Assembly: GCF_016026235.1 (NCBI RefSeq)
Contig: NZ_CP065613.1
DNA from: Escherichia coli
Lineage (GTDB): Bacteria > Pseudomonadota > Gammaproteobacteria > Enterobacterales > Enterobacteriaceae
DNA length: 64,000 nucleotides
Reading direction: 5' to 3' (one strand)
Numbering within the stretch: position 1 is the first letter of the stretch; each line of letters begins with the position of its first letter. Shown one piece after another: positions 1 through 42,817 of the stretch. The position numbers were made by a program, and so were the translations under genes. The notes under the pieces were generated by a model. That model worked only from the letters and a program-made list of their open reading frames with translations. It did no database searches and was not told the origin of the DNA.

Positions 1-342
1 TAACCGCCCACCGCCTGGCACTTCCCAGATAAATCGCAACGGTTCTGCTGCCGCTATACCGGAAAAGGCCACGGTGGTTCCGCTCTGCCCCTCTAATTCG
101 ACACAACGAGATTGCGAACACAAGCGAACCCGCAGTCCTGAAGGTGTCGGGCCGATAAGCTGATAACGCCACGCTACCAGCGTCATCAATCCTGAAGCAG
201 GTTGTCGCGTAGAAAGAGGCGCAGACGACATCGACTCACCGCGATGATTTAGCGTAATTCCTACACTACTTGCCTGCCACATCCCCTCCCCGGCGGCTTG
301 CACCAGCAGCGGAAACAATAATATTGCTAATAAGGTTCTCAT
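1..342 (-). CDS. flhE: FlhE flagellar protein, partial (C-terminal part runs off the window start)
   Basis: Minus-strand translation from ATG at 340-342 gives MRTLLAILLFPLLVQAAGEGMWQASSVGITLNHRGE..., matching FlhE; start overlaps flhA stop (ATGA-type overlap). Confidence 0.85.
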   Translation of the reverse strand, partial: MRTLLAILLFPLLVQAAGEGMWQASSVGITLNHRGESMSSAPLSTRQPASGLMTLVAWRYQLIGPTPSGLRVRLCSQSRCVELEGQSGTTVAFSGIAAAEPLRFIWEVPGGGRL

Positions 343-2420
343 TATTTGCCGCCAATTGTCGCCGTCATGCGGATATGTCGGTTATCAGACAGTTCCAGAT
401 TCGACAGGACCACTAACTGCGGCAAGCTGCGGCGCAGGAAGCGAGACAATAATGGTCGCAGCGCGTGGTTCACCAACAATACTGGCGGCGCACCCAGCAT
501 CTCCTGACGGGATAGCGCTTCCTGAGTTTGCGCCAGTAAACGATCCGCCAGCCCTGGCTCCAGTCCTCCCCCGCCCTGCAGCGCCTGTAGTAACAAACGT
601 TCCAGCGGTGTATCGAGGCCAATAACATGGACTTCATCTTTGCCAGGAAACCACTGCTGGGTAATCGCCCGTCCCAACGCCACGCGCACGACGGCGGTTA
701 ATTCATGTGGATCGCTTTGGATGGGCGCATGTTCCGCCAGCGTTTCGAGAATGGTGCGCATATCGCGAATCGGTACTTTTTCATCGAGGAGATTTTGCAG
801 CACTTTATGCAGTGTGGTGAGCGTGACGACGCCAGGAACGAGATCTTCCGTCAGCTTTGGCATCTCCTGGGCGACGCGATCCAACAGCTGTTGCGCCTCC
901 TGACGACCAAACAGCTCTGCGGCATGCTGGCTAATGAGGTGGTTAAGATGCGTTGCTACCACCGTGCTGGCCTCAACCACTGTGTACCCCTGAATCTGCG
1001 CCTGTTCTTTTAGCGCACTTTCAATCCAGATAGCATTCAGGCCAAATGCCGGATCGACGGTCGCCTCACCAGGTAACGTCCCGGCAGCGGTACCAGGGTT
1101 AATTGCCAGCCAGCGCCCCGGATAAGCATCACCACTGCCAATCTCTACGCCTTTCATCAAAATACGATAACGTGCCGGTTGCAGATCCATATTGTCGCGA
1201 ATGTGCACCACCGGCGGCAAGAAGCCCATTTCCTGAGCAAATTTCTTACGAATACTACGAATACGGCCCAGCAACTCGCCATCTTGTTGGAAATCAACCA
1301 TCGGGATCAGTCGATAACCCACTTCCATTCCCAGAGAATCTTCCAGTTGTACATCGTTCCACGTCGCTTCTACAACGGTATTATTCTCTGCCATTTTTAC
1401 CGGTTTGGGTTCGGCAGGCGCTTTTTGTTCGCGTCCGCGTATCCACCAGGCCAGCCCGAGCAATCCGGCAGTGAACAGCAAAAATACCAGGTTCGGCATT
1501 CCAGGCACCAGGCCGAGTAAACCGAGCACGGCGGCGCTTAACAACATAACGCTTGGGTTACTGAAAAGCTGATTCACCATCTGCTCGCCAACATCCTGAT
1601 CGGTGCTGACACGCGTAACGATGACCCCCGCGGCGGTAGAAATCACCAGCGCCGGAATTTGTGCCACCAGACCGTCGCCAATGGTCAATAGCGTATAACT
1701 TTCCGCCGCGTGTCCCATGCTCATGCCATGTTGCAGCACGCCGACCAGCAACCCGCCGACAACGTTAATGACCATGATGAGGATCCCGGCGATGGCATCG
1801 CCGCGAACAAACTTACTTGCCCCGTCCATTGAGCCGTAAAAATCGGCTTCCTGAGTGACTTCGGAGCGGCGTTTTTTCGCCTCATCTTCACCAATCAATC
1901 CGGCGTTAAGGTCGGCGTCAATCGCCATCTGCTTACCCGGCATACCATCGAGAACAAAGCGCGCACCCACTTCTGCGATACGCCCGGCACCTTTGGTAAT
2001 GACCATAAAGTTGATGATCACGAGAATGACAAACACCACGATACCGATAGCGAAATTGCCACCAACGAGGAAGTGACCGAACGCTTCGACCACCTTCCCT
2101 GCCGCCGCTGCGCCGGTATGCCCTTCCATCAAAATGATACGGGTTGAAGCCACGTTAAGTGCCAGACGCAACAGCGTGGTAAACAACAGAATGGTCGGAA
2201 ACGCAGCAAACTCGAGCGTGCGCTGGGTAAACATCGCCACCAGCAACACCATGATCGACAAGGCAATATTGAAGGTAAACAACAGGTCGAGTATGAATGC
2301 GGGCAGTGGCAGCACCATCATCGACAAGATCAACAGGATCAAAATCGGTCCGGCAAGGATCTGCCATTGTGTCGATTTCAGGTTTGCGGGCAGGCGCAGC
2401 ATCGCGGCCAGATTACTCAT
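342..2420 (-). CDS. flhA: Flagellar export apparatus protein FlhA (692 aa)
   Basis: ORF 342..2495 matches FlhA; the in-frame upstream extension is not used, start set at the conserved MSNLAAMLRLPANLKS (ATG at 2418-2420) overlapping the flhB 3' end. Confidence 0.95.
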   Translation of the reverse strand: MSNLAAMLRLPANLKSTQWQILAGPILILLILSMMVLPLPAFILDLLFTFNIALSIMVLLVAMFTQRTLEFAAFPTILLFTTLLRLALNVASTRIILMEGHTGAAAAGKVVEAFGHFLVGGNFAIGIVVFVILVIINFMVITKGAGRIAEVGARFVLDGMPGKQMAIDADLNAGLIGEDEAKKRRSEVTQEADFYGSMDGASKFVRGDAIAGILIMVINVVGGLLVGVLQHGMSMGHAAESYTLLTIGDGLVAQIPALVISTAAGVIVTRVSTDQDVGEQMVNQLFSNPSVMLLSAAVLGLLGLVPGMPNLVFLLFTAGLLGLAWWIRGREQKAPAEPKPVKMAENNTVVEATWNDVQLEDSLGMEVGYRLIPMVDFQQDGELLGRIRSIRKKFAQEMGFLPPVVHIRDNMDLQPARYRILMKGVEIGSGDAYPGRWLAINPGTAAGTLPGEATVDPAFGLNAIWIESALKEQAQIQGYTVVEASTVVATHLNHLISQHAAELFGRQEAQQLLDRVAQEMPKLTEDLVPGVVTLTTLHKVLQNLLDEKVPIRDMRTILETLAEHAPIQSDPHELTAVVRVALGRAITQQWFPGKDEVHVIGLDTPLERLLLQALQGGGGLEPGLADRLLAQTQEALSRQEMLGAPPVLLVNHALRPLLSRFLRRSLPQLVVLSNLELSDNRHIRMTATIGGK

Positions 2421-3561
2421 GGGTCGGTTTCTCGTTAATAAAATCCAGGGCTTCCGGCACCGGAAGATGAGTAGGTTGTACAGGGCGCTGTCCACCAGCC
2501 AGACGCCAGCGTTTCAGTTGCCAGACCTAGGCCAGCACTTCCGCCACCGCGGCGTACAGTTGACCCGGGATTTGTTGACCAATCTCCGCATGTCGATACA
2601 GCGCTCGCGCCAGCGGCGGCGCTTCAAGCGTCGGGACGTTATTTTCAGCGCCAATTTCACGAATGCGCAGCGCGACCAGCCCTGCACCTTTAGCGACCAC
2701 TTTCGGTGCGCTCATTTTGTTTTCGTCATACTGCAACGCTACCGAATAGTGGGTCGGGTTATTGACAATGACATCCGCTTTCGGCACATCGGCCATCATC
2801 CGACGCCGTGCAGCCGCTCGCTGCATCTGACGGATCCGCCCTTTAACATGGGGGTCGCCTTCGCTTTGTTTGAACTCATCACGAATATCCTGCCGCGACA
2901 TACGCAGCTTTTTCAGGTGGCTGAAGATTTGGAAAAAGACGTCAAATCCCACCATTGGAATGACACCAAGCACCACCAGCAGTGCGCATAGCCCTACCAG
3001 ATCCATCGCATTACCCATGGCGGTAATCGGAGACTCGGCCATTAAGCGCATCATCTGCGGCCAGTGATGCCAGAGAAAAAACCCCGTCACGCTGCCAACC
3101 AGGATGGTTTTCAAAATTGCTTTAAGTAACTCCGCGCCAGTCTGTGCCGAGAACATCCGTTTAATGCCCGGTAGCGGGTTGAGTTTGGAAAACTTCGGCT
3201 GCAAGGATTTGCCGCTAAATACCAGCCCTCCCAGCATGACCGGAGAAATGAGCGCCACCAGCACCACGCAGCTAATCAGCGGTAGCAGCGCCAGCATGGC
3301 TTCTCTGATCAGCAGAATAAACTGCCCGAGGATCAGATTCGGGTCATTGATAATACTGTGATCAAAATGCAGCCCAGCGGAGAGCATGCCCGACAATCGA
3401 CGGGCCAGGGACACACCGCCAAACCAGATAACACACACGCCCACCAGCAAAATCAGCAGTGAAGTCAGTTCACGGGAACGTGGGATTTGCCCCTCTTCCC
3501 GCGCTTTTTCTAGTCGGTGAGGTGTGGGGGCTTCTGTTTTGTCGTCGCTCTCGTCAGACAC
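2413..3561 (-). pseudogene. flhB: FlhB flagellar export switch protein with premature amber codon (TAG at 2527-2529); encodes 344 aa instead of ~382
   Basis: ORF 2527..3561 matches FlhB to ...AVAEVLA then TAG. The same frame continues after the stop (VWQLKRWRLAGGQRPVQPTHLPVPEALDFINEKPTHE*) to the expected stop overlapping the flhA start, so this is a point nonsense change, not the native end. Confidence 0.8.
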
Positions 3562-3796: not shown

Positions 3797-5305
3797 ATGG
3801 AATGGCAACAATTGCTTAACTGCAACCGTCGGAAAGATAATCTAAAAAAAACCAACATAGCATTTTTACATCCCCTTGCTAGCGGAAGACAAGAGATCGA
3901 ACGGGATTACGACCGATTACTTTTTGCTGCGCCAACTCGTCGCCTTGCGGATAAAACACAAGTTTTCCCGTTAGATCAAAATGACAGCATACGGACGAGA
4001 CTGACTCATTCTCACGAAGTAGCAAACTTTGCTCGCGGAATAGGAATGAGACTCGCTTTCGAGATGAAGGAGCACATCTTTGGCGAAATACCCACGGGGA
4101 TTGTCGTTGAACGCGACGTTCCTGCTCTGTTAGCAGCGATCGGACTGGCACACGATCTCGGTAATCCACCATTTGGGCATCAAGGTGAAGCAGCGATGCG
4201 CGCATGGTTTAATAAAAATCTTCCAGGTCTTCTTGATAAAGAAGTAAACAGCGAAATATATAACGACTTTCTGCAATTTGATGGAAACTCACAAACCCTG
4301 CGCCTGGTTACCAAATTACAAATTATTAACGATAACTTTGGTCTGAATTTGACCTATGCCACGCTGGCTGCACTGATCAAATATCCCCGAGCTTCATATT
4401 CATCGGACAAACATTGGAAAAAGCACGGTTTTTTCTATTCTGAGCATGAGGTTGTCATGGATGTCTGGCAGCAAACGGGCCTTGGCGTACCAGGTAATGA
4501 TGCCGGTTGCCGCCACCCATTTACCTGGATAATGGAAGCTTGCGACGATATTGCCTACTCTGTGCTTGACGCAGAAGATACCATCAAGAAAGGATTTGCC
4601 TCATACCAGGATTTGCGTGATTTTTTGATGTCACAATCCGGGGCGAACGATGTAATTGAAAATGTTATTAAAGCTGTAGAGGCCAAAAATGACGCCTGGA
4701 AAGAGCAAAGAAATGCACTTTCACCGGCAGAAATTAATGAACTCAGTATGCAAATGTTCAGAGTGTATGCCACCAGTGCATTGATTAATGCCGTAGTAGA
4801 AGCCTTTCGCGAACAATTACCCACGCTGATGCAGCGTGACTGCCCGTTCAAAGATTTAATCTCGCAAAGCAAAGGTCACGCCCTCTGCACTGCCCTGAAA
4901 ATGTTCGACCGAACACGAGGCTACCTTCATCGTTCAGTCTTGCAACTGGAACTTAGGGGGTCTAATTACATTACTAACTTGATGGATATGCTCTGGATTG
5001 GCATCCATGGACACAAAACAAAGAAAGAACGAGACGGAGAACGCGAGTCCGCGTCTGCAGATAACCTTTTTGTTTCTCGTGAAGAATACCTGTCGGATAC
5101 TCCCTTTGGTCGCTATGCTTACGGGACAATATCTGAAAATTATCGCCGTGTGTTTGAAGATCCCGCCAATACACTCCCTGTTCTTTATAAAGAAGCGCAG
5201 TTGCTTACCGACGCAATCTCAGGCATGACGGATAGTTATTTAATGCGCCTTCACGATGAGCTAAAATCACTGTATGAATGTGGTCTCAAACACCCAACAG
5301 CTTGA
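3797..5305 (+). CDS. Dgt-family dGTP triphosphohydrolase-like HD-domain protein (502 aa)
   Basis: Motifs RTRLTHSHEVANF, LAHDLGNPPFGHQGE, FDGNSQTLRLV and FTWIMEACDDIAYSVLD align with conserved blocks of E. coli Dgt (recalled). RBS AAGGTGA 7 nt upstream of ATG. AT-rich relative to flanking che/flh genes. Confidence 0.8.
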   Translation: MEWQQLLNCNRRKDNLKKTNIAFLHPLASGRQEIERDYDRLLFAAPTRRLADKTQVFPLDQNDSIRTRLTHSHEVANFARGIGMRLAFEMKEHIFGEIPTGIVVERDVPALLAAIGLAHDLGNPPFGHQGEAAMRAWFNKNLPGLLDKEVNSEIYNDFLQFDGNSQTLRLVTKLQIINDNFGLNLTYATLAALIKYPRASYSSDKHWKKHGFFYSEHEVVMDVWQQTGLGVPGNDAGCRHPFTWIMEACDDIAYSVLDAEDTIKKGFASYQDLRDFLMSQSGANDVIENVIKAVEAKNDAWKEQRNALSPAEINELSMQMFRVYATSALINAVVEAFREQLPTLMQRDCPFKDLISQSKGHALCTALKMFDRTRGYLHRSVLQLELRGSNYITNLMDMLWIGIHGHKTKKERDGERESASADNLFVSREEYLSDTPFGRYAYGTISENYRRVFEDPANTLPVLYKEAQLLTDAISGMTDSYLMRLHDELKSLYECGLKHPTA

Positions 5306-6026
5306 ACAGCGTATCGCCGATTTTTTTACGCTTAGTGATGAGCATAAGAAAGCCAGAGTATTACTTGATACTCTGGCCTGTTCCTGTCCGGCCTGGATTT
5401 TTGGCGGGATGGTGCGTGACTTAGGCTTGTTTGGCGTCGAAGGATTCTCTTCAGACCTTGATATCGTCATCGGTCGCTCGCGTGAGGAACTCTTCCAGAC
5501 ATTGGCTGAACTGCCCGTCAAACAACTGCGTTTTAATAAGTTTGGTGGGATCCGTTTTCGTTATCACGACTTCGAATTTGATATCTGGAACCTCAATGAG
5601 ACATGGGCATTTCGGGAAAAACTTATATTTTGTGAGGATGAATCAAGTCTGTTAAACACTACGCTAATGAGTTGGGATGCCGTGCTCTATGATCTACGTA
5701 GTGAAAAAATTATCAGTAAAGATAATTATTTGACCGATTTAAATCGCAGACATCTTGAACTTGTTCTTCATACTAACCCCAATCCAAGCGGTTCGGTAAC
5801 GAAGATTTTACGCACTATTTTTACTAAGCAGGTAAAGAGTTTAGGGCCGGAACTCTGTCATTTCTTGCACCATGAACTGACGAAAAAACGTTATGAAGTA
5901 TGGCATCACTACGATGTACTGCACTACCAATCATCGTCATTTTCTCGTTCACAATTTAATGCATTGATAAATTTACTGGCGCAACAATCACGCTTCGCTG
6001 ATCTAAAATTATCAAACTACAAATAA
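5274..6026 (+). CDS. Minimal nucleotidyltransferase, CCA-adding enzyme / poly(A) polymerase head-domain type (250 aa)
   Basis: WIFGGMVRDLGLFGVEGFSSDLDIVIG matches the GGxVRDxLLG...DxD head motif of class II tRNA nucleotidyltransferases/PcnB. Start overlaps the upstream dGTPase-like ORF by 32 nt; exact start codon uncertain. Confidence 0.6.
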   Translation: MNVVSNTQQLEQRIADFFTLSDEHKKARVLLDTLACSCPAWIFGGMVRDLGLFGVEGFSSDLDIVIGRSREELFQTLAELPVKQLRFNKFGGIRFRYHDFEFDIWNLNETWAFREKLIFCEDESSLLNTTLMSWDAVLYDLRSEKIISKDNYLTDLNRRHLELVLHTNPNPSGSVTKILRTIFTKQVKSLGPELCHFLHHELTKKRYEVWHHYDVLHYQSSSFSRSQFNALINLLAQQSRFADLKLSNYK

Positions 6027-10750: not shown

Positions 10751-12412
10751 TCAAAATGTTTCCCAGTTTGGATCTTGTTCAGCAATTCGCAGTCGTGGCT
10801 GTGCCGGTGGTTGCTCACTGGCAGGACGGGATGGTGTTTGCGGTTTATTGGTGAGTGGGCTGGCTGCCAGACGGAACGCGGAAACCGCTTGCGTTAAACG
10901 ACTCGCCTGTTCTTCCAGCGCAGCGGCGGCGGCAGCTGATTCCTGCACCAGCGATGCGTTCTGTTGCGTGACGCGATCCATTTCCGAAACCGCCAATGCG
11001 ACTTGATCGATGCCACGGCTCTGTTCATCCGATGCCGATGCAATCTCGCCCATAATGTCAGTCACGCGAGTGACAGCATTGACGATATTGTTCATTGTTT
11101 CCCCGGCGCTTTCGACCAGCACCGAACCGGTATCAACGCGTGCGACGGAGTCTTCAATGAGGGCTTTGATCTCTTTTGCCGCTTGGGCGCTGCGACTGGC
11201 AAGATTACGCACTTCACCCGCCACCACGGCAAAACCACGGCCCTGTTCACCCGCACGCGCGGCTTCAACCGCGGCATTCAGCGCGAGGATATTAGTCTGG
11301 AAGGCAATACCGTCGATAACGCTGATAATGTCGGCAATTTTCTTCGAACTATCGGCGATCTCATGCATCGTTTTCACTACGCCATCCACCACTTTGCCGC
11401 CGTGCTGGGCGGTGTCGGAGGCACTTTGCGCCAGTTGCGAGGCCTGGCGGGCGTTATCGGCGTTTTGCTTCACTGTCGCGGTGAGCTGCTCCATGCTGGC
11501 GGCAGTTTCTTCCAGCGCGGATGCCTGCTGTTCAGTACGGGAGGAAAGATCGGTGTTGCCCGCCGCAATTTCACGGGTACCGGCATAGATGGCATCTGAA
11601 CCTTCGCGGACATGAGTGACGGTGTCAGTCAAAGAGCGTTGCATATGTGAAACGCTCTGCGCCAGGTCGCCCATTTCACTGCGCCCGTCAATGGTCAGGG
11701 TATTCGCCAGGTTACCACCGGCGATTTCGCGAATGTGAGCAATAATTTTTGCCAGCGGAGTAAGCAACATACGGCGAATGCCGTACCACGCCACCAGCAG
11801 AATCAATACCACCACCAGCGCGATAACCGCCAGTTGCCACTGGGCAAATCGGTAATCATCTGCGTTGTCAGTGACGATATCGCGATACAGTTTTTCACTG
11901 CTGAGGGCGTACTGAGCAAACGCTTCGCCCATTGCATTTTGCATTCCCTGGGTTGGCTGAGCGAAATAAGCTCCAGTATTGCCATAATCTAGATAATCAA
12001 TCAGTTCAGTTAACGCTGTGTAATAGTTTTTATATTTTTCATCAATATTACGACTGGTAGCGACCATTTCAGGTAACGGTGCCATGCTTTTGAATTTTTT
12101 ATAATGCGTCGCTGCCTGCGCCAATGTTTTCCTGGCGCTATCGAGCAATTCAACTTTGGCGTTACTTTGTTGATTGGAGGAATCCATCATCATCCGCACC
12201 GCTGAACGACTCAGGTTAATGCGCGTTTGCAGCATTAAATCCCAGGTTGACGTCAGCTCGCCCTGCTGTTCCCGTAATTGATTGGAAACCACAAAGCTCT
12301 TCTGGCTATGGTGAAGGGAAGAAAAAAACAGACTGCCGGAAATAAGCTGTAACAGTGCGAATACCCCCAGCACCATTACCAACAGCGTGACTACGCGGAT
12401 ACGGTTAATCAT
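10751..12412 (-). CDS. tar: Methyl-accepting chemotaxis protein II Tar (aspartate/maltose chemoreceptor), 553 aa
   Basis: Matches Tar from [23 protein letters not shown]-terminal NWETF pentapeptide present. Start ATG at 12410-12412. Confidence 0.94.
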
Positions 12413-13080: not shown

Positions 13081-15972
<2,892 letters not shown>

Positions 15973-16245
15973 GCTTCCTCGGTTGTCGTCTGTTGTTGCG
16001 GATTTTTCACCGCACGCACATGCTCTTCCAGTTCAATAAACGACGGACGTTCGCTGGAATAGAGCGTTTTGCGACCAAACTCAACGGCGATAGGCGGTGC
16101 GTAACCGTTCAGATTAGAAAGCAGAGTGACTTTGACGCACTGCATCATTTTGCTGGTTTCGGCGCTTTTCTGACGTAAAACACTCGCTAATGGGGAAATA
16201 AATCCGTAAGCCAATAAAATGCCGAGGAAAGTCCCCTGAGGAATC

Positions 16246-17528
16246 CCCAGAAAACAAGACAGGCATAGTGAGATGTGATCTAATTGATTGTGCTAACAAT
16301 TTCAAGGAGATCACCACTATGCCTGCACGTTCATTATGCCAAAATTTCCTTAACAACATACTGGCCCCTTTGCATCTTTACCGTCAAAAATCACTGATTG
16401 ACGCAACTAATGCTGTAATAAATGGCGCTTCCCTCACACTTACCAGTATCGGGCGTCATTTAACCGGTACGGCATCAGTTAAAAACAAAATAAAGCGGGT
16501 GGATCGACTGTTGGGGAATCGACATTTGCAAAATGAGGTTTCCACCATTTTTCAGCGAATTACCCAAAAGATTACGCGGGGAATGTCTCGTGTTGTGATA
16601 CTCATTGACTGGAGTGCTTATCATGCCTCTCGTTTTCAGCTTTTGCGGGCAAGCCTGGCATGTGACGGGCGTTCTTTACCGTTGATGAGTTGTGTCGTTC
16701 CATCATCACAGACAGCGAATGCAGATGTACATGAGCGTTTTCTGGAATCGCTTGCTGAGTGCTTTTCCCCCGGGACTGATGTCATTGTTATTACAGATGC
16801 CGGTTTTCAGGGGCGATGGTTCCAACAGCTCCGCTCCCGTGGCTGGACCTATATTTGCCGGGTACTGGGCAATCATTATTACAATGTTGGTAATGGCTGG
16901 GAAAAGGTGTCGGACTCAGGCACAAAAGCATCAACGACAGCAATTTATTTAGGTGAAGGCCTGCTGGGTCGAGATAAAAATGCACAACATGAAGGGCATT
17001 TTTATCTTTATAAAAGTAAGCCTAAAGGTCGTTGATTTAAACGCTCGAAGGAAAGAGCAACCAGACCATCGGTGACGGCTAAAGCTCGTACTGCCGGGAA
17101 ATCACCATGGTTTATTTTCACAAACAGTACTGAGTTCTCGCCAAAACAGGTAATGAAATTATACAGCCGTAGAATGCAAATTGAGCAAAATTTCAGGGAT
17201 GAAAAAATCCTCGCTGGGGATTTGGACTACGGTTTGGTGCCAGTCATTCATCCGGGCGGGTCACGGTATTGAGTCTGATCGCAACATTAGCCAGTATCAT
17301 TATGTGGTTAAGCGGTTTCAGCCTGGAAAACAAAGGGATACATCATAAATATCAGGCAAATACAGTGAAGCACAGGCGAGTCATCTCGTTATTAAAACTG
17401 GCGGAGAATGTGATTCGACATTCTCCACTCATACTAAACACACTGTCACTTGACGCAGGGCTGAAAGTTCTACAGCAACGGTATACCAATATGATAATGG
17501 TTTACTAAATTTTCTGGGGATCCCTCAG
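16246..17528 (+). mobile_element. IS4-family, IS10-like insertion sequence (~1.28 kb) inside motA
   Basis: Ends are inverted repeats CTGAGG(A/G)ATCCCCAGAAAA, resembling IS10 termini; flanked by a ~9 bp target duplication (GAAAGTCC core); internal ORFs homologous to IS10 transposase. Confidence 0.8.
16268..17508 (+). pseudogene. IS10-like transposase, degraded into three ORFs (16268..17035, 17072..17272, 17269..17508)
   Basis: Segments align in order with IS10 transposase blocks (KRVDRLLGNRHL, ILIDWS, ITDAGF, YSRRMQIEQNFRDEK, YQANTVKHRRV) but are separated by a stop and a frame change. Confidence 0.75.
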
Positions 17529-18285
17529 GGAAAGTCCCCACCATCGCATGTGCGATAAGCGCACCCAGCTCGGCGGCAGGACGATCGGCTGAACCTAACG
17601 CGTGAACGACCCCCATTACAGCCGCGACAATACCAAACGCCGGAAGTGAGTCCCCGACCAGCGCCAGACTGTTCGCCGGGACTTCTGCCTCGCTTTCGTG
17701 CGTCTCAATCTCTTCATCCATCAGGGCTTCGATTTCGAAGGTGTTCATATGACCGCTGATAATCAGACGCAGATAATCGACGATAAAATCAAGCATGACG
17801 CTATCCGCGAGGATGCGTGGGTAGCTGGCGAAGATCTCGCTCTCACGGGGATTTTCAATATCACGTTCCAGCGAAAACATCCCCATCTGCCGCGATTTCG
17901 CCATCAACCGATAAAGCAGAGCCAGCAGATCCATATACATTGCTTTGGTGTATTTGGAGCGACGAAACAGCAACGGCAGCGCTTTCAGCGTGCCTTTAAT
18001 CGCTTTGCCATTATTGCCGACGATAAACGACCCAATCCCTGCACCGGCAATAATCACCAGTTCAGCGGGTTGATAGAGTGCTCCAAGGCTTCCACCGGTC
18101 ATCAAATAACCGCCGAAAACTGTACCGAGAACAACCAGGTAACCTAATAAGATAAGCACGACATCATCCTTCCACTGTTGACCATGACAGGATGTTCAGT
18201 CGTCAGGCGTTAACGCGCGATTGGGGCAAAAAAAAGCAGCGGTACGTCGTTACCGCTGCTGGAATGTTGCGCCACACCGTATCAG

Positions 18286-19217: not shown

Positions 19218-19996
19218 TATTCCCACCCAGAATAACCAACTTTATTTTTATGCGGTTTCACCGCACCCCGTGATGTCGCCGGGAAGCCCCAGTAAAAAAT
19301 AATTAGTATTAGAATAGTTGCGATAAGCTGCAATAAGCAGAACCACCTTTTTGGTTTAATATGTCCTTACAAATAGAAATGGGTCTTTACACTTATCTAA
19401 GATTTTTCCTAAATCGACGCAACTGTACTCGTCACTACACGCACATACAACGGAGGGGGGCTGCGATTTTCAATAATGTGTGATGCAGATCACACAAAAC
19501 ACTCAATTACTTAACATAAATGTATAAGTCATACTTTTGTTTTGGGTGTATTTCAATCTGTTAAAAAGTTTTTCGCTACGCTAGCAAGCAAAAATGAAAC
19601 AGGAATAATCGAAATGGGATGTTGCGCACAGTTAAAATAACTCACCGTAAATAATCATCTGCTATAAATAATCACTTTCATGCAATACCAGATAAGCTAT
19701 TTTTAAACAGACACTTACCGCACAACAAACTAATTAAATACAAAGAAAGGCAACAATCAACTTAATGTTAATGAAATGTTTTACATATATTAACCACTTG
19801 TTTAATGCGGAGAATCAGTACACTATTTTCTTATAATTACATTTGAAATTATATGATCACCGGGAGTGATTGATTAATTGTCTTTACTAATAATCAAACT
19901 AATATTTACCTGTTTGACCGAGTTGGGATTGCGTCGTTTCTCCATTAGGAGTAAAGCTTTAATGTCACCTGAAGTTCACAGAATAAGGAACAGGTT
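19218..19996. promoter_or_regulatory. flhDC upstream control region / uspC promoter region (AT-rich, long untranslated leader)
   Basis: ~780 bp AT-rich non-coding stretch between divergent flhD and uspC; no IS element present here. Individual binding sites not resolved by eye. Confidence 0.5.
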
Positions 19997-27168: not shown

Positions 27169-27672
27169 ATGGCAACCGCTGGAATGCTTCTCAAACTCAA
27201 CTCTCAAATGAACCGCGAGTTTTACGCATCCAATCTCTACCTTCACCTGAGTAACTGGTGTTCTGAACAGAGTCTGAACGGCACCGCCACTTTCCTTCGC
27301 GCCCAGGCACAGAGTAATGTGACCCAAATGATGCGCATGTTTAACTTTATGAAGAGTGTCGGCGCTACCCCCATCGTTAAAGCCATTGATGTTCCCAGTG
27401 AAAAACTGAACTCTCTGGAAGAACTGTTCCAAAAAACGATGGAAGAATACGAGCAACGTTCTAATACGTTGGCACAGTTAGCCGATGAAGCGAAAGAACT
27501 GAATGATGATTCAACCGTCAATTTCCTGCGCGATCTGGAAAAAGAACAGCAGCATGATGGTCTGTTGCTGCAAACCATTCTTGATGAAGTGCGCAGTGCG
27601 AAACTTGCGGGTATGTGCCCTGTGCAGACCGACCAACATGTTCTGAATGTCGTGTCACACCAGCTGCATTGA
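27169..27672 (+). CDS. ftnB: Ferritin-like protein FtnB (167 aa)
   Basis: Full-length match [40 protein letters not shown]... Confidence 0.92.
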
Positions 27673-32114: not shown

Positions 32115-32379
32115 TCTACGTAGGATCAATGAGTTACATAGCAGTGCATTGTGAAACTTTGCTGACGTTGAATGGTCGTCTTTGCAACCACTGGCAGAAA
32201 ATGGATAGCCGTAGATTGCGTTGAGCACAGAAACAGCACAGGGTAATCGTCTACCTGGTCCTGTAAAGGAGGTTGTTGCCACACAAGCTAAAGCGCTTGA
32301 CCTGCCCCCAGTATTCGGTACAACTGTCAGTTAGTAATGGACTGACCCCGTTACTTTATTCGTACCCCTTATAATGGGG

Positions 32380-32576
32380 TGTTAGCCAGCCAGACCCGGC
32401 ATGATTACTGCCCCCAGTCGTCCATGATCCGGGGGGTGATGTCACCGGGTCTGGTGGGGCGCTGGTAACCGCTAATAGGGGTCAGGTCAGGCACTTTTGC
32501 CGGGACCGTCTGTAACGTGGATGCCGGTACCTGCTCCCCGTGGTTATCTGGTTAACCCATATACAAGGGAGACAGA
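32380..32576 (+). ncRNA. Candidate structured non-coding RNA upstream of the IS110-family recombinase (possible bridge RNA)
   Basis: GC-rich non-coding stretch with a long inverted repeat (CCAGACCCGG ... CCGGGTCTGG) immediately 5' of the recombinase; bridge RNAs are encoded in the 5' non-coding end in the IS110 subgroup (established for IS621). Inference only. Confidence 0.25.
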
Positions 32577-33773
32577 ATGACCGAATCCAGCGATTACGAA
32601 TCCGTCCAGGTCTTTATCGGCGTTGATGTCGGTAAAGATACGCATCACGCTGTTGCCATTAATCGTTCAGGTAAACGCCTGTTCGATAAAGCATTACCCA
32701 ACGACGAAAACAAACTCAGGTCGCTAATATCTGACCTGAAACAACATGGTCAGATACTGCTGGTTGTTGATCAGCCAGCTACCATCGGTGCGTTACCTGT
32801 CGCCGTTGCCCGCTCAGAAGGAGTCCTTGTCGGATACCTCCCTGGACTGGCCATGCGCCGCATAGCCGACTTACACGCCGGTGAAGCTAAAACTGATGCT
32901 CGTGACGCTGCCATCATTGCCGAAGCTGCCCGTACCCTGCCTCACGCGCTACGCACGCTGAAACTGGCTGACGAGCAAATCGCCGAACTCTCCATGCTCT
33001 GCGGCTTCGATGATGATCTTGCCGCACAGACAACGCAGGCCAGCAACCGTATCCGCGGCCTTCTGACCCAGATACATCCGGCACTGGAGCGCGTTCTCGG
33101 TCCGAGACTTGAGCACCCGGCGGTACTCGATCTTCTCCAGCGATATCCCTCACCAGAAAAACTCGCTTCGCTGGGTGAGAAGAAGCTGGCAGCCCAGCTC
33201 TGCAAACTTGCGCCTCGTCTGGGTAAACGCCTTGCAGCAGACATAGCTCAGGCACTGGCCGAACAAACCGTCGTCGTTCCCGGCACGAATGCCGCTGCCG
33301 TAGTACTGCCACGTCTGGCACTCCAGCTCATCACGCTGCGTAAGCAAAGAGACGAGGTGGCGCTTGAGGTAGAACAGCGAGTTCTTGCTCACCCTCTTTA
33401 CCCGGTCCTGACCAGTATGCCCGGAGTCGGTGTCAGGACCGCAGCCAGACTCCTCACCGAGGTCGCCTGCCGCGCCTTCGCCTCTGCCGCACATCTCGCT
33501 GCTTATGCTGGCCTTGCGCCGGTAACTCGGCGATCCGGCTCGTCAATACGCGGTGAGCATCCCTCGCGACGGGGTAATAAAGCTCTCAAACGGGCGTTGT
33601 TCCTGTCGGCCTTCGCCGCGCTCAGGGATCCGCTCTCCAGGGCTTACTACACCCGCAAAATGAGTCAGGGAAAACGACACAATCAGGCGCTTATCGCCCT
33701 GGCGAGACGACGCTGCGACGTTCTGTTCGCCATGATGCGCGACGGGACTTTTTATACCCCGCAGGGGTCATAA
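32577..33773 (+). CDS. IS110-family transposase/recombinase (398 aa)
   Basis: N-terminal RuvC-like DEDD motif VFIGVDVGKDTHHAVAIN and C-terminal Transposase_20-type block PGVGVRTAARLL; RBS AAGGGAGA upstream of the ATG. Confidence 0.85.
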   Translation: MTESSDYESVQVFIGVDVGKDTHHAVAINRSGKRLFDKALPNDENKLRSLISDLKQHGQILLVVDQPATIGALPVAVARSEGVLVGYLPGLAMRRIADLHAGEAKTDARDAAIIAEAARTLPHALRTLKLADEQIAELSMLCGFDDDLAAQTTQASNRIRGLLTQIHPALERVLGPRLEHPAVLDLLQRYPSPEKLASLGEKKLAAQLCKLAPRLGKRLAADIAQALAEQTVVVPGTNAAAVVLPRLALQLITLRKQRDEVALEVEQRVLAHPLYPVLTSMPGVGVRTAARLLTEVACRAFASAAHLAAYAGLAPVTRRSGSSIRGEHPSRRGNKALKRALFLSAFAALRDPLSRAYYTRKMSQGKRHNQALIALARRRCDVLFAMMRDGTFYTPQGS

Positions 33774-33869
33774 CATGCTTGACAACTTAATAGGGGCACC
33801 CCCCGGTAGACGATCCTGCCCTATAGTTGGACTGACCCCACCCCGGTAGACGATCCTGCCCTATAGTTT

Positions 33870-36396: not shown

Positions 36397-36672
36397 GTGG
36401 CTTCTGTTTCTATCAGCTGTCCCTCCTGTTCAGCTACTGACGGGGTGGTGCGTAACGGCAAAAGCACCGCCGGACATCAGCGCTATCTCTGCTCTCACTG
36501 CCGTAAAACATGGCAACTGCAGTTCACTTACACCGCTTCTCAACCCGGTACGCACCAGAAAATCATTGATATGGCCATGAATGGCGTTGGATGCCGGGCA
36601 ACTGCCCGCATTATGGGCGTTGGCCTCAACACGATTTTACGTCACTTAAAAAACTCAGGCCGCAGTCGGTAA
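36397..36672 (+). CDS. insA: IS1 protein InsA
   Basis: [43 protein letters not shown]... matches InsA. Confidence 0.9.
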
Positions 36673-37094
36673 CCTCGCGCATACAGCCGGGCAGTGACGT
36701 CATCGTCTGCGCGGAAATGGACGAACAGTGGGGCTATGTCGGGGCTAAATCGCGCCAGCGCTGGCTGTTTTACGCGTATGACAGTCTCCGGAAGACGGTT
36801 GTTGCGCACGTATTCGGTGAACGCACTATGGCGACGCTGGGGCGTCTTATGAGCCTGCTGTCACCCTTTGACGTGGTGATATGGATGACGGATGGCTGGC
36901 CGCTGTATGAATCCCGCCTGAAGGGAAAGCTGCACGTAATCAGCAAGCGATATACGCAGCGAATTGAGCGGCATAACCTGAATCTGAGGCAGCACCTGGC
37001 ACGGCTGGGACGGAAGTCGCTGTCGTTCTCAAAATCGGTGGAGCTGCATGACAAAGTCATCGGGCATTATCTGAACATAAAACACTATCAATAA
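36591..37094 (+). CDS. insB: IS1 transposase InsB reading frame (expressed as InsAB by -1 frameshift)
   Basis: ORF matches InsB (...[21 protein letters not shown]...); overlaps insA in the -1 frame. Confidence 0.85.
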
Positions 37095-40774: not shown

Positions 40775-42817
40775 TTATTGCTGAATTTGATTGGATAGTA
40801 AGACCTGCAACATATCTTGTTGATGCTCAGCTATCTCATCTTCCAGCCAACGACCTTTATCTTTCATCAGCCGAATCATAGCAAGCAATTTAAGACTATC
40901 AGTCTGGTTATTGGCAAGGCTTGCTTCAAAGTGCTCCTGCTTCTGTTGCGGCTGGAAGTTACTCAAGCGCGAGTTCTTGCTGTGGCTGATAAGGCAAAGG
41001 TTGCCAAACGAATGGAGTGCACTCTGCTCAACCGGTTTATAGCCATCCATCGGATGCTGGGGTGAGAAGTGCTCCACCGAGCTGCGGAAAGTGAACTCAA
41101 AGGAGCCAGCAACTTTGTCGCTATTCCGATCTCGTACCCACAGCAGATAGTCGAGGAAGTTGAAGACAAAGTTGTTCTCGATATGACCGAAGCGAAGTTT
41201 GGATGTAATCACCTTGTGCCAACTCTCATCCACATTGATGGCGGGCAACAGGGCGTTATCAAGGTAGAGCATCTGGTAATAGGAAGCCCCTTCACCAGGC
41301 GCCAAAAAGCGCTGGAAGACAAAGCGGCGAGCCTGACTCTCCAGATAGGACAGATAAGCCCCGGCATCCACCGGTTGATCAGGGTGACAATTGTCGAACA
41401 GATATCTCAGTGCACCATTCAGCCAATGTTTGTAAACCAGGGTCGGGGTCGACACATGAAACGCCGACAGCAACATCAGGACCCGCCGGTTAACACCAGA
41501 GAAACCATTCTCATTTTCATCCTTGTCAAAGGTATTGATGTAACTGACGCTCTTTTCCGAATACCAGTGCAGCCGCTTCAGACTCCAACTATCCTTGCCA
41601 TCGGCAAACTCGCGCTTGATGATGAACTGATCAAACAGATACTTGCTCTTTAACAGGCCATAGATAAAACGCTGAACTGCCGCTACTGGATCCGGTTGCC
41701 TTATCACTCGCAGCTCAAACTGATCGACCAGTTGTTTATCATCAAGCGGCACCCCCTCCGTATCACCCGGGTCGCGGCTCACGAGTCGCAGCACATGGAG
41801 CAAGAAGTTGGAGAAGTTGATGACGCTGTTAAAGCGCTCGGAGCCTGCGCTCTCCTCCTCCACCGTCTGCTCACCATCAAGCTTGTCATCCTGCAAAATG
41901 GCCAACAAGGTGCGCCCTTGGCTACCGGCAGCTGCACGGCTTTTATCGGCAGCGTCGGCCGTGTTTGGGGATCCTAGCAGTTCAAGCAGATGGGCAAAAT
42001 CACGGGGCACAAACTGACCCCAGTCGCTCTCACCAAACAGACGGTGGCGCTCTTGCGGGGTAAAGCCGTACTGGATATAGCGCTCCATATTGGCGCAGGC
42101 ATCCCATACCCGAGTCAGGATATGAATACTTTGGCGACGATGCTCTTCCTCGGGTATCTGGTTCAGCGTCTCCATCAGCCGCGCCTTGATCACTTCATGC
42201 TTTTCCAACTGCTCGCCGCGATTGTTCATCGCCTCGAAGAAGTGATTGAGATCGGTATCCTTGGGTACTTCGATACGAGAGATCTGCACATGCTTGAAGA
42301 GGTAGTCGCAAAAGGCCGTCAGTTTAGCCCCTACCAAACCAAGATCCGCCATTGCCTTGCCAATCAGCTCAAAACCGTTCACCAAACCTTCATTGAAGGT
42401 ACTCCCCCGCAAATCGTAGGGGGCAACACCCTGCCATAAGCGCTCGAAGGTATGGCTCGATATCGGGCGACTCTCAAAAGCGAGGTTGATGGTCTGATAC
42501 CAGCTCATATCCACCGAATCTATCGCGTGATGTTTGAGCCAATTGGCCAGCAGAGAGAGGGTAGTAAAGCGCTGCTGGCCATCGATTACCTCGAAACTGC
42601 CATCGTCCCGGGCAAACACCACCAGGGTGCCGATATAGTAGGTTTGCGGCCCCTTACCACTGACCAATTTTTGCTGATAATCCAGCACATCCTGCAGCAG
42701 CTGGGTGATCTCTCCCTCACCCCAGGCATAGTTGCGCTGGTACATGGGCACCAGATAGCGGGCGCGATCTTCAAGCAGTGCACGAATGGAAAAGGGGCGA
42801 ACGCCTGCATCATTCAT
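40775..42817 (-). CDS. DUF262 + DUF1524 (HNH-like) protein, GmrSD-family type IV restriction-like (680 aa)
   Basis: N-terminal DUF262 motifs ([26 protein letters not shown]) and C-terminal HNH-type block ([19 protein letters not shown]). GC-rich compared with the AT-rich island cargo. Confidence 0.75.

What the first reader, a model, noticed from the sequence alone, without database searches (positions are those of the whole stretch)
2526..2531. flhB carries a premature amber codon within a CCTAGG context
The FlhB frame stops at TAG (2527-2529, minus strand) after ...AVAEVLA, yet the same frame stays open and FlhB-like for 37 more codons up to the canonical stop overlapping the flhA start. 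This is therefore a single-base nonsense change (TGG or CAG to TAG), not the native end. The site reads CCTAGG, which is what C-to-T deamination at the methylated cytosine of a Dcm site (CCWGG) produces. The loss removes the extreme C-terminus of the FlhB cytoplasmic domain, which may weaken rather than abolish export-switch function.
Basis: partly seen in the sequence, partly recalled or inferred. Interest (0 to 1): 0.5.

Follow-up and report, generated by a model that had tools for sequence, protein, structure and literature searches.

The report
Amber-truncated flhB in a decaying flagellar locus
The flagellar export gene flhB really carries a recent single-base stop codon, made at a methylated-cytosine site, in an invasive-type E. 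coli clone whose motility genes are already breaking down, so it is ordinary gene decay with a clear mutational cause.

Summary
flhB (window 3561..2414, minus strand) has TAG at 2529..2527, codon 345. K-12, two outgroups and the closest complete relative (E. coli FDAARGOS_943) all have TGG inside GCCTGGGTC. The change is G-to-A opposite the inner cytosine of a CCWGG site. All 37 downstream codons are unchanged.

It is not a sequencing error: at least 20 public contigs encode the same 344-residue product. None of 5,386 complete RefSeq genomes matches the 81-mer exactly.

The allele is the newest lesion in a clone that already had cheA Q579-amber (also at CCWGG) and probably motA::IS. The window also has a 4-bp cheA deletion.

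Eight of 20 G:C-to-A:T differences from FDAARGOS_943 fall on the inner C of CCNGG (1.65% of G:C positions; P about 6e-10), at CCSGG as well as CCWGG. That relative carries a plasmid whose restriction enzyme is 304/305 identical to R.Ecl18kI (CCNGG). So 5-methylcytosine deamination is well supported, but Dcm need not be the only methylase.

Salmonella truncations two to seven codons further on keep export activity. The product may therefore be partly active, but motility is lost anyway. This is ordinary pseudogenisation; interest is low to moderate.

The parts
2527..3561 (-). Truncated flhB coding sequence: GTG start, 344 codons, then the amber stop.
   Evidence: ORF list. Alignment to K-12 flhB shows 18 nt differences: 14 synonymous, S43C, I81F, G98C and W345*. 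Pfam PF01312 is recorded for the identical product.
2527..2529 (-). Premature amber codon TAG, codon 345. The ancestral codon is TGG (Trp). The mutated base is window 2528.
   Evidence: Polarised as derived using FDAARGOS_943 and the two outgroups L014 and L015.
2527..2531 (-). Former CCWGG site. Ancestral CCTGG now reads CCTAG, a G>A change opposite the inner cytosine of the complementary CCAGG.
   Evidence: K-12 and relatives read GGCCTGGGTCT; the window reads GGCCTAGGTCT.
2414..2526 (-). Orphaned 3' end of flhB: codons 346-382 plus the native TAA. It is still in frame and identical to K-12.
342..2420 (-). flhA, intact at 692 codons. Its ATG at 2420..2418 overlaps the native flhB stop (ATGAGTAA). 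It now lies 106 nt downstream of where flhB translation ends.
   Evidence: The product is identical to that of the relatives (WP_000066983.1 is annotated in L012 and L014).
13081..15041 (-). cheA pseudogene with two lesions: a 4-bp deletion at the 14242/14241 junction (codon ~267) and Q579 CAG>TAG at 13311..13309. The amber is CCCAGG>CCTAGG, again at the inner C of a CCWGG site.
   Evidence: The amber alone is present in L021, where CheA is called at 578 residues and flhB is intact.
16237..17528 (.). IS4-family element of about 1.29 kb inserted in motA after nt 631, with an 11-bp target duplication. MotA is truncated after about 210 of 295 residues.
   Evidence: Collinearity break against FDAARGOS_943. 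NCBIfam hits: NF033591 IS4-family transposase, and MotA residues 1-210.
11183..11183 (.). Window-lineage C>T at the inner C of CCTGG. In tar this is Q410 CAG>CAA, synonymous.
   Evidence: Shared with L018 and L020 but not L021.
19291..19291 (.). Window-lineage G>A at the inner C of CCGGG (a CCSGG site).
27397..27397 (.). Window-lineage G>A at the inner C of CCGGG (a CCSGG site).
42113..42113 (.). Window-lineage G>A at the inner C of CCCGG (a CCSGG site), inside the defence island.

Best explanation
A real, recent, clone-specific nonsense mutation (flhB W345am, TGG>TAG). It most likely arose by spontaneous deamination of 5-methylcytosine to thymine at the inner cytosine of the bottom-strand CCAGG of a CCTGG/CCAGG site that escaped repair.

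It arose in an IS-rich E. coli clone whose closest complete relative carries a Shigella/EIEC-type invasion plasmid. The inner C of all CCNGG sites is a strong transition hot spot in this clone. The likely cause is a small ColE1-type plasmid encoding an Ecl18kI/SsoII-type CCNGG restriction-modification system, acting alongside chromosomal Dcm.

The mutation became fixed in a sub-lineage that already carried cheA Q579am and, by inference, motA::IS. It therefore met relaxed selection and is one step in the stepwise decay of the flagellar and chemotaxis regulon.

The product lacks the last 38 residues. These are the final two turns or so of helix alpha-4 plus the whole proline-rich C-terminal tail. 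The product keeps the transmembrane domain, the NPTH autocleavage site and the early-substrate pocket residues. By analogy with Salmonella FliK-bypass truncations, it would probably still export but with a loosened or less efficient specificity switch. flhA translation may also fall, because the ATGAGTAA stop/start overlap is no longer used.

Shown: the mutation, its polarity, its context, its clonal distribution, the order of the lesions and the CCNGG enrichment. Inferred: the chemical cause of this single event, the presence of the methylase in this very strain, neutrality, and the phenotype.
For: **Mutation and context.**

**Derived state.**

**Independent assemblies.** The exact product is in NCBI (STM86623.1, GCA_001907535.1) and in Logan runs ERR9828666, SRR3578993 and SRR30892832; 20 contigs were read. 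No exact 81-mer match was found in 5,386 complete genomes.

**Order of events.** 13311 (cheA amber) and 10437 are shared by the window, L018, L020 and L021. 11183 is shared by the window, L018 and L020. 2528 and 8188 occur only in the amber carriers. Contigs of L018, L020 and L021 end at the motA insertion point.

**Hot spot.** 8 of 20 G:C>A:T differences lie at the inner C of CCNGG, against an expected 1.65% (P=5.8e-10). With the private SNPs of relatives the count is 11 of 26 (P=1.5e-13).

**Prior for the sites.** W345 is the only nonsense-capable CCWGG 5mC position in flhB: 1 of 34 transition routes and 1 of 102 overall. cheA Q579 is one of 3 of 45.

**Methylase.** After the CCSGG hits were seen, the closest relative was found to carry plasmid NZ_CP065617.1. 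It encodes a 379-aa C5-methyltransferase with HTH_3 and DNA_methylase domains, and a restriction enzyme 304/305 identical to R.Ecl18kI, PDB 2FQZ. The same relative has chromosomal dcm and vsr intact.

**Function.** Salmonella numbering is E. coli +1. Alleles W348fs, K351-TAG, W353-TAG and P362fs export both substrate classes, and the pocket is A286/P287/A341/L344 (PMC13060781). FlhB 1-350, 1-355 and 1-360 showed increased motility without FliK but not with it (Inoue 2019, as cited in PMC7771051). Deleting the proline-rich region in Shewanella lowered flagellation by about 30%.
Against: - A single event cannot be assigned a chemical cause. TGG can only become a stop by G>A, so the transition class is forced by the codon.
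- The window holds neither dcm nor the plasmid, so methylation in this strain is inferred from the mutational footprint and from a relative.
- The CCNGG motif was recognised after looking at the data. The later private-SNP and plasmid checks are the only independent support.
- In other E. coli backgrounds W345 is hit as TGA (4 backgrounds) nearly as often as TAG (at least 6). W345* products are no commoner in public data than truncations at non-Dcm codons. W345 is therefore not a conspicuous species-wide hot spot.
- The truncation point lies 2 codons upstream of the shortest characterised functional Salmonella allele and 1 residue after pocket residue L343, so the product could be null.
- The shared motA::IS rests on contig ends, not on sequence.
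Confidence: 0.72

Rival explanations
1. An ordinary replication-error or other non-methylation G:C>A:T transition that happens to lie in a CCWGG site. On this reading the Dcm context is coincidence.
For: TGG can reach a stop only through G>A, so the substitution type is uninformative. In other E. coli backgrounds the neighbouring unmethylated position gives TGA about as often (4 backgrounds against at least 6 for TAG). W345* is not over-represented relative to control nonsense positions. Twelve of the 20 transitions in the clone are not at CCNGG.
Against: Only 1 of 34 transition-type nonsense routes in flhB lies on a 5mC position, and that is the one used. The cheA amber repeats the pattern (3 of 45). 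The joint chance is about 0.002. Clone-wide enrichment at the inner C of CCNGG is about 40-fold.
Confidence: 0.15
2. The truncation was positively selected. Either it shuts down flagellar export in an invasive, host-adapted pathogen, or it is a gain-of-function FliK-bypass-like allele that loosens the export switch.
For: Shigella and EIEC lose motility convergently (established knowledge). C-terminal FlhB truncations in Salmonella are gain-of-function suppressors (PMC13060781; PMC8041783). Two of the three CCWGG hits inside genes in this lineage are nonsense, against 18 of 78 such positions being nonsense-capable.
Against: Two of three against 23% gives P of about 0.13, which is not significant. 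cheA, and probably motA, were already inactive when the amber arose, so motility-related selection had little left to act on. fliK is intact in the relative, so there is nothing to bypass. A truncation that leaves export partly active would be a poor way to silence flagella.
Confidence: 0.1
3. Sequencing or assembly error; the true base is G.
For: None, beyond the general possibility for any single base.
Against: The identical 344-residue product and identical DNA are found in at least 20 contigs from separate NCBI assemblies and SRA runs. The allele co-segregates with a second private SNP, 8188.
Confidence: 0.01
4. The amber is read through by a suppressor tRNA or by context-dependent read-through, so full-length FlhB is still made.
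For: The downstream 37 codons are undamaged.
Against: The undamaged tail is expected for a very recent mutation. The window's three tRNAs are Leu(taa), Cys(gca) and Gly(gcc), none with a CUA anticodon. No signal or structure stands out around the site. The rest of the genome could not be checked.
Confidence: 0.02

Closest known systems
lacI amber hot spots at Dcm sites (Coulondre, Miller, Farabaugh and Gilbert 1978). 5-methylcytosine deamination at CCAGG/CCTGG is opposed by Vsr very-short-patch repair. Methylation-induced hypermutation in natural E. coli and Salmonella populations was described by Cherry 2018, cited here through PMC9520237.
   Same: There is a G:C>A:T change at the inner cytosine of CCWGG that creates an amber codon: TGG>TAG in flhB and CAG>TAG in cheA. 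There is also a significant excess of such changes across the clone.
   Different: Here the excess extends to CCSGG sites, which Dcm does not methylate and Vsr is not known to protect. This implies a second methylase with CCNGG specificity. The apparent rate ratio of about 30-50x exceeds the 8x quoted for Dcm, but it rests on only 8 events.
Salmonella FliK-bypass flhB alleles with C-terminal truncation: W348fs, K351-TAG, W353-TAG and P362fs (Kutsukake 1994; Williams 1996; PMC13060781), and the engineered FlhB 1-350, 1-355 and 1-360 (Inoue 2019).
   Same: The C-terminal end of helix alpha-4 and the flexible proline-rich tail (FlhB_CCT/PRR) are lost. The transmembrane domain, the NPTH site and the early-substrate pocket residues are retained.
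   Different: The stop is at Salmonella-equivalent residue 346. That is 2 residues upstream of the shortest characterised allele and immediately after pocket residue L344(St). No phenotype is known. It occurs naturally in a strain with dead motA and cheA, not under selection for motility.
Flagellar gene decay in Shigella and enteroinvasive E. coli: IS insertions, deletions and point mutations in flhDC, flhA, fliD and other genes (established knowledge, for example Al Mamun, Tominaga and Enomoto 1996-97).
   Same: Several independent inactivating lesions occur in one regulon. The window has motA::IS, cheA frameshift plus amber, and flhB amber. The sister lineage has cheZ frameshift and fliR::IS1. 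The genome is IS1- and IS600-rich, and the relative's plasmid carries invasion-plasmid markers.
   Different: flhDC is intact here. The lesions are young and differ between sister lineages, so the clone is at an early stage of decay. Two of the lesions are methylation-site ambers rather than IS events.
SsoII/Ecl18kI-type CCNGG restriction-modification systems on small ColE1-like plasmids of Enterobacteriaceae.
   Same: The closest relative's 5.8-kb plasmid encodes an enzyme 304/305 identical to R.Ecl18kI. A divergently transcribed 379-aa HTH plus C5-methyltransferase lies next to it.
   Different: The plasmid is not in the window, and its presence in the window's own strain is not shown. Its role as a mutator is inferred from the CCSGG footprint only.

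Membership tests
FlhB / EscU-YscU export-switch family (Pfam Bac_export_2) | Sequence membership and synteny: located upstream of flhA with overlapping stop/start, in the flhBAE operon. | tested here: met
   1131 of 1149 nt are identical to K-12 flhB. PF01312 is recorded for the identical product, with flhA and flhE downstream. E=3e-232 to Salmonella FlhB chains.
FlhB / EscU-YscU export-switch family (Pfam Bac_export_2) | NPTH autocleavage motif and the early-substrate pocket (St A286, P287, A341, L344) are retained. | tested here: met
   The translation contains VNNPTHYS and ...AAVAEVLA, ending one residue after L343(Ec)=L344(St).
FlhB / EscU-YscU export-switch family (Pfam Bac_export_2) | Full-length C-terminal domain, including the end of helix alpha-4 and the proline-rich tail. 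| tested here: not met
   The stop at codon 345 removes residues 345-382. The gene is a truncated allele or pseudogene of the family.
5-methylcytosine deamination hot-spot mutation at a Dcm-type site | The ancestral sequence is CCWGG and the change is C>T at the inner cytosine (G>A on the other strand). | tested here: met
   Ancestral GGCCTGGGTCT against window GGCCTAGGTCT. The derived state was shown with three references.
5-methylcytosine deamination hot-spot mutation at a Dcm-type site | Statistical excess of transitions at the methylated position in the same lineage. | tested here: met
   8 of 20 against 1.65% expected, P=5.8e-10. CCWGG alone gives 3 hits among the 17 transitions first tallied, against 0.85% expected, P=4e-4. 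Three further hits occur among 6 private SNPs of relatives. Caveat: the motif was defined after seeing the first data.
5-methylcytosine deamination hot-spot mutation at a Dcm-type site | The site is actually C5-methylated in this strain (a methylase is present and active). | not testable with these tools
   dcm/vsr and the plasmid lie outside the window. In the closest relative dcm and vsr are annotated intact, and an Ecl18kI-type R-M plasmid is present.
5-methylcytosine deamination hot-spot mutation at a Dcm-type site | The same site mutates recurrently, above background, in independent lineages. | tested here: not met
   W345* recurs: TAG in at least 6 other backgrounds, TGA in 4, TAA in 1. 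However, the 20 contigs for the K-12-allele 344-aa product fall within the range of control truncations at non-Dcm codons, 15-42 contigs, with two controls at 0.
FliK-bypass class of FlhB C-terminal truncations | The truncation falls in the region of the known alleles (St 348-362) and leaves the core fold intact. | tested here: inconclusive
   The stop corresponds to St 346, which is 2 residues upstream of W348fs. No structure or stability test was run.
FliK-bypass class of FlhB C-terminal truncations | Phenotype: exports early and late substrates and suppresses a fliK null (polyhook-filaments). | not testable with these tools
   This needs genetics and secretion assays.
SsoII/Ecl18kI-type CCNGG R-M system as the source of CCSGG methylation | A restriction enzyme of CCNGG specificity paired with an HTH plus C5-methyltransferase. 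| tested here: met
   Met in the relative FDAARGOS_943 only: 304/305 identity to PDB 2FQZ R.Ecl18kI, with an adjacent divergent 379-aa methylase carrying PF01381 and PF00145.
SsoII/Ecl18kI-type CCNGG R-M system as the source of CCSGG methylation | Present in the strain that the window comes from. | not testable with these tools
   Only 64 kb of chromosome is available. The indirect evidence is the window-lineage transitions at the inner C of CCSGG (19291, 27397, 42113), plus 7537 in L018 and 1788 in L021.

The most novel reading that the evidence does not exclude
A small mobilisable plasmid carrying an Ecl18kI/SsoII-type CCNGG restriction-modification system acts as a sequence-specific mutator in this invasive-type E. 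coli clone. About 40% of the clone's recent G:C>A:T substitutions in this 52-kb comparison fall on its target cytosine. Where the target is CCWGG in the right frame, it makes amber codons (flhB W345, cheA Q579). On this reading a selfish R-M element is measurably speeding up the pseudogenisation that accompanies host adaptation.
Probability: 0.45. Interest if true: 0.45.

Novelty: new member of a known kind. Interest (0 to 1): 0.3.

Why it matters
On its own the amber codon is one more pseudogene in a lineage that is losing motility.

It is useful in three modest ways. First, it is a clean natural example of the textbook route from a methylated cytosine to an amber codon, with a twin in cheA 11 kb away. 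Second, it led to a clone-level signature at CCNGG, including CCSGG sites that Dcm does not touch. That signature fits a restriction-modification plasmid found in the nearest relative. If confirmed genome-wide, it would show a mobile R-M system shaping the mutation spectrum and gene loss of a pathogen clone. Third, the allele is a natural FlhB 1-344 truncation, just beyond the range tested in Salmonella. It could help define how much of helix alpha-4 the export switch needs.

For annotation, flhB, cheA and motA in this window should be called pseudogenes. The nested lesions also give ready-made markers for sub-lineages of the clone.

Tried and rejected
**Sequencing error.** Rejected: the same DNA is in many independent assemblies.

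**Native short FlhB.** Rejected. No complete E. coli genome matches the TAG-bearing 81-mer. The 345-residue Shigella 'FlhB' entries in the same cluster are N-terminally shortened calls with a normal C-terminus, not the same truncation.

**Species-wide hot spot at W345.** I looked up exact 344-residue products in nine other allele backgrounds and found three. The DNA confirmed real TAG, TGA and TAA stops in several backgrounds. Control truncations at ten non-Dcm nonsense-capable codons were just as common, so I do not claim recurrence above background. Many of the hits are contigs that simply end there.

**Selection for nonsense.** Two of three genic CCWGG hits are nonsense, against 23% expected. 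This is not significant.

**RNA structure that would couple flhA translation to flhB.** The fold of 2385..2535 is no better than shuffles, z=+1.17. Polarity on flhA stays an inference.

**Suppressor tRNA in the window.** None found.

**Literature.** Williams 1996, Kutsukake 1994 and Cherry 2018 are not held, so they are cited second-hand through PMC13060781, PMC7771051 and PMC9520237. Searches for the assembly accessions gave nothing useful.

**Samples carrying the methylase.** I tried to see which samples carry the Ecl18kI-type methylase. It is too widespread, in 2,086 blocks, to tell whether the window's sub-lineage has it.
Full report
**1. The observation**

On the minus strand, window 2540..2521 reads aagtgctggc ctaggtctgg. 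CCTAGG is therefore 2531..2526 and TAG is 2529..2527. The ORF list gives a 344-residue ORF at 2527..3561 (-) ending ...AVAEVLA.

Translating 3561..2414 in one frame gives FlhB with a single internal stop. It continues as VWQLKRWRLAGGQRPVQPTHLPVPEALDFINEKPTHE for 37 codons. It ends at TAA 2416..2414, inside ATGAGTAA, where flhA starts at 2420.

Against K-12 flhB there are 18 nucleotide differences: 14 synonymous, three missense (S43C, I81F, G98C), and nt 1034 G>A. The last converts TGG (W345) to TAG in the context GGCCTGGGTCT > GGCCTAGGTCT. Nothing differs downstream of the stop.

**2. Real or artefact, and whose allele is it**

An 81-mer centred on the TAG has no exact match in 5,386 complete RefSeq E. 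coli genomes. The best matches are all 80/81.

The exact 344-residue product is nevertheless on record: NCBI STM86623.1, assembly GCA_001907535.1, and Logan runs ERR9828666, SRR3578993 and SRR30892832. Twenty contigs were read, and their DNA is 0-1 SNP from the window over up to 13.5 kb. The base is therefore not a sequencing error.

The same allele with TGG restored (382 residues, same three missense changes) is also on record. It occurs in E. coli FDAARGOS_943 (NZ_CP065615.1) and a few draft genomes.

The whole window is collinear with FDAARGOS_943. Over about 52 kb of alignable sequence there are about 30 point differences plus IS differences.

FDAARGOS_943 carries a 155-kb IS-laden IncF plasmid with sepA, virK, capU, phoC and an IpaH-type NEL ligase fragment. 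Its chromosome is rich in IS1 and IS600. The clone is therefore of the enteroinvasive E. coli/Shigella-like kind. This is inferred from the relative; the window itself shows only the IS load.

**3. Polarity and order of events**

Two outgroups at about 99.2% identity (AHM8C212RI = L014; SC467 = L015) and K-12 all have C at window 2528 on the plus strand. The TAG is therefore derived.

Public contigs give a nested series:

| Lesion (window position) | Carried by |
|---|---|
| cheA Q579am (13311) and tap A90V (10437) | window, L018, L020, L021 |
| tar synonymous change (11183) | window, L018, L020 |
| flhB W345am (2528) and cheB S12L (8188) | amber carriers only |

L021 has an intact flhB, and its CheA is called at 578 residues. 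It therefore has the cheA amber alone, without the 4-bp deletion seen in the window.

The contigs of L018, L020 and L021 all end where the window has an IS in motA. This suggests, but does not prove, that motA::IS is also older than the flhB amber.

The sister lineage (FDAARGOS_943 and its kin) has a different set of lesions instead: a cheZ frameshift, fliR::IS1, yecT::IS600, araF::IS1 and ftnB::IS1.

The flagellar and chemotaxis regulon is thus decaying independently in sister lineages. flhB W345am is the newest lesion in the window's branch.

**4. Other lesions in the window**

- cheA (15041..13081, -) has a 4-bp deletion at 14242/14241, and CAG>TAG at 13311..13309 in CCCAGG>CCTAGG.
- motA is cut after nt 631 by an IS4-family element of about 1.29 kb at 16237..17528, with an 11-bp duplication.
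- flhDC, motB, cheW, tar, tap, cheR, cheB, cheY, cheZ and flhA remain open.

**5. The mutational cause**

In CCTGG the first G pairs with the inner cytosine of the complementary CCAGG. That cytosine is the one methylated by Dcm (established knowledge). Its deamination gives exactly CCTAG.

Of 102 possible single-base nonsense changes in flhB, 34 are G:C>A:T transitions. Only one of these lies on a CCWGG 5mC position, and it is W345. In cheA, three of 45 transition routes do, and Q579 is one of them.

Listing all differences from FDAARGOS_943 showed more. Twenty are G:C>A:T, and eight of these hit the inner C of CCNGG.

- CCWGG hits: 2528, 11183 and 13311.
- CCSGG hits: 19291, 27397 and 42113 in the window lineage, and 11105 and 15722 in the FDAARGOS lineage.

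Such positions make up 420 of 25,444 G:C positions, or 1.65%. This gives P=5.8e-10 and a rate ratio of about 40. One C>A change (25259) also sits on the inner C of a CCGGG site.

The motif was recognised after seeing these data, so I looked for independent support.

- (a) Private SNPs of three relatives add 3 of 6 at the inner C of CCNGG: 7537, 1072 and 1788.
- (b) A CCNGG-specific C5-methylase was predicted, and one was then found in the closest relative. Its 5.8-kb ColE1-type plasmid NZ_CP065617.1 encodes a 379-residue HTH plus C5-methyltransferase. A divergently transcribed restriction enzyme beside it is 304/305 identical to R.Ecl18kI, PDB 2FQZ. That enzyme cuts CCNGG (established knowledge).

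Chromosomal dcm and vsr are annotated intact in that relative.

The literature accessible here says that the inner C of Dcm sites mutates C>T about 8-fold faster in natural E. coli and Salmonella. It also says that other R-M methylase motifs show similar biases (Cherry 2018, as summarised in PMC9520237).

I conclude that 5mC deamination is the likely origin of the flhB amber. In this clone the methylation is probably laid down by two enzymes.

**6. A test that did not support a stronger claim**

If W345 were a conspicuous hot spot, the same stop should recur. It does. Exact 344-residue products exist in three other FlhB allele backgrounds. The DNA shows TAG in at least six further backgrounds, TGA in four and TAA in one. 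None of these has the dgt-like insertion that marks the window's clone.

Control look-ups of K-12-allele products truncated at non-Dcm codons were just as frequent:

| Truncation | Contigs |
|---|---|
| W345* (the allele in question) | 20 |
| W347* | 16 |
| Q358* | 25 |
| Q362* | 22 |
| Q334* | 15 |
| Q330* | 19 |
| R323* | 26 |
| W167* | 42 |
| W164* | 30 |
| W352* | 0 |
| Q348* | 0 |

The public collection is so large that most nonsense alleles of flhB are present. Some of the hits are merely contigs that end at that point.

Recurrence therefore says nothing special about W345. The near parity of TAG and TGA also argues against a strong Dcm-only effect at this site across E. coli in general. 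The case for 5mC rests on the clone-specific spectrum.

**7. Consequence for the protein**

Salmonella numbering is E. coli +1, so the stop corresponds to St W346. The product keeps the four transmembrane helices and the NPTH autocleavage site. It also keeps the early-substrate pocket residues, St A286, P287, A341 and L344. L344 is equivalent to Ec L343, the penultimate residue of the truncated protein.

It loses the last two turns or so of helix alpha-4 and the whole flexible proline-rich tail.

Evidence from other systems:

- Salmonella alleles W348fs, K351-TAG, W353-TAG and P362fs are FliK-bypass mutants that still secrete early and late substrates (PMC13060781).
- FlhB 1-350, 1-355 and 1-360 gave increased motility in the absence of FliK but not in its presence; 1-355, 1-360 and 1-365 showed slightly looser hook-length control (Inoue 2019, as cited in PMC7771051).
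- Mutations at the end of alpha-4 and in the tail are gain-of-function for substrate entry (PMC8041783).
- Deleting the proline-rich region in Shewanella lowers flagellation by about 30% (PMC7771051).

However, this stop is two residues beyond the characterised range and directly abuts the pocket, so a null cannot be excluded.

Translation of flhB now ends 106 nt before the flhA start, instead of overlapping it. A drop in FlhA synthesis is possible. The local RNA fold is unremarkable (z=+1.17), so this remains an inference.

In this strain the question is moot: MotA and CheA are inactive.

**8. Read-through**

The window's only tRNAs are Leu(taa), Cys(gca) and Gly(gcc). Nothing suggests programmed read-through. 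The intact downstream codons are what a very recent mutation leaves behind.

**9. Comparison with what is known, and novelty**

The mechanism is the classical Dcm-site amber hot spot, and the setting is the well-known flagellar decay of invasive E. coli and Shigella. The allele itself is deposited in databases as an ordinary 'FlhB', and I found no description of it.

It is a new member of a known kind. The one less ordinary element is the CCNGG, rather than CCWGG, footprint and its link to an Ecl18kI/SsoII-type plasmid. Methylation-induced hypermutation by R-M methylases is already described in general terms.

**10. Verdict**

Interest is low to moderate, at 0.3.

Noticed in passing
window 13309-13311 and 14241-14242 (cheA, minus strand): cheA carries two independent lesions. 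One is a second amber, Q579 CAG>TAG, in the same CCTAGG-producing context. The other is a 4-bp deletion at about codon 267. The amber is older than the flhB amber, because it occurs alone in GCA_902503985.1.
   Followed up: yes
window 16237-17528 (inside motA, 15969-18159 minus strand): An IS4-family element of about 1.29 kb with an 11-bp target duplication splits motA after nt 631. It is absent from FDAARGOS_943. Contig ends suggest it is shared by sister isolates whose flhB is intact.
   Followed up: partly
window-wide; positions 2528, 11183, 13311, 19291, 27397, 42113 (window lineage) and 11105, 15722 (FDAARGOS_943 lineage): Eight of 20 G:C>A:T differences from the closest relative hit the inner C of CCNGG, CCSGG included (P about 6e-10). 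This fits an Ecl18kI/SsoII-type methylase found on a 5.8-kb plasmid of the relative.
   Followed up: yes
window 25259: A C>A transversion on the inner C of a CCGGG site, the same target cytosine as the transitions. It is unexplained; it could be chance or a different lesion at the methylated base.
   Followed up: no
window 3797-6026 (+ strand), between flhB and cheZ: A two-gene insertion that is absent from K-12. It consists of a 502-residue dGTPase-like HD protein and an overlapping 250-residue protein. The first matches the PADLOC dGTPase model at 1e-70 and the NCBIfam dGTP_triPase subfamily, but scores below the equivalog cut-offs. The second has no family hit. The pair looks like a small anti-phage cassette lodged in the flagellar region. 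It is present in a minority of E. coli genomes.
   Followed up: partly
window 3270, 3321, 3435 (flhB codons 98, 81, 43): The clone's FlhB differs from both close outgroups by three missense changes in the membrane domain: S43C, I81F and G98C. All are transversions to T at first codon positions. FlhA has none among 20-31 synonymous differences. C43 is also the Salmonella and Shigella residue. F81 and C98 were seen only in this clone among the sequences compared here. This may be an early sign of relaxed constraint on flhB.
   Followed up: partly
window 34076-40600 (minus strand), IS1 at 36342-37109: The 1,911-residue DUF4011 anti-phage protein Hhe is split by an IS1 in the window. It is intact in FDAARGOS_943 and in EC-JS426.
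   Followed up: partly
window about 34000-57000: A defence island lies between yecA and tRNA-Leu. It contains Hhe, two DUF262 (GmrSD-like) proteins, and a type I R-M system (M, S, R) with an embedded YecA-family protein and an M48 peptidase. It also holds IS1 remnants, a tyrosine recombinase and unannotated ORFs (52731-53966, 54369-55499). A 10-bp insertion/deletion relative to FDAARGOS_943 lies at 55176-55185.
   Followed up: no
window 32349-33828: An IS110-family element (398-residue transposase, NF033542) lies between yecA and the island. It is absent at this place in FDAARGOS_943.
   Followed up: no
L012/L013/L028 (FDAARGOS_943), not in the window: The sister lineage has its own lesions: a cheZ frameshift (1 bp, opposite window 6328/6329), fliR::IS1, yecT::IS600, araF::IS1 and ftnB::IS1. 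All these loci except fliR are intact in the window; fliR lies outside it. Whether fliR::IS1 predates the split, which would mean the export apparatus was already dead, could not be tested.
   Followed up: partly
L040-L062 (other E. coli backgrounds): Nonsense alleles of flhB are common in public data. W345 is found as TAG, TGA and TAA in about ten unrelated backgrounds. One near-identical group (L040, L041, L045, L049; 1-4 SNPs apart) carries all three stop codons. Truncations at eight other codons are equally frequent.
   Followed up: yes
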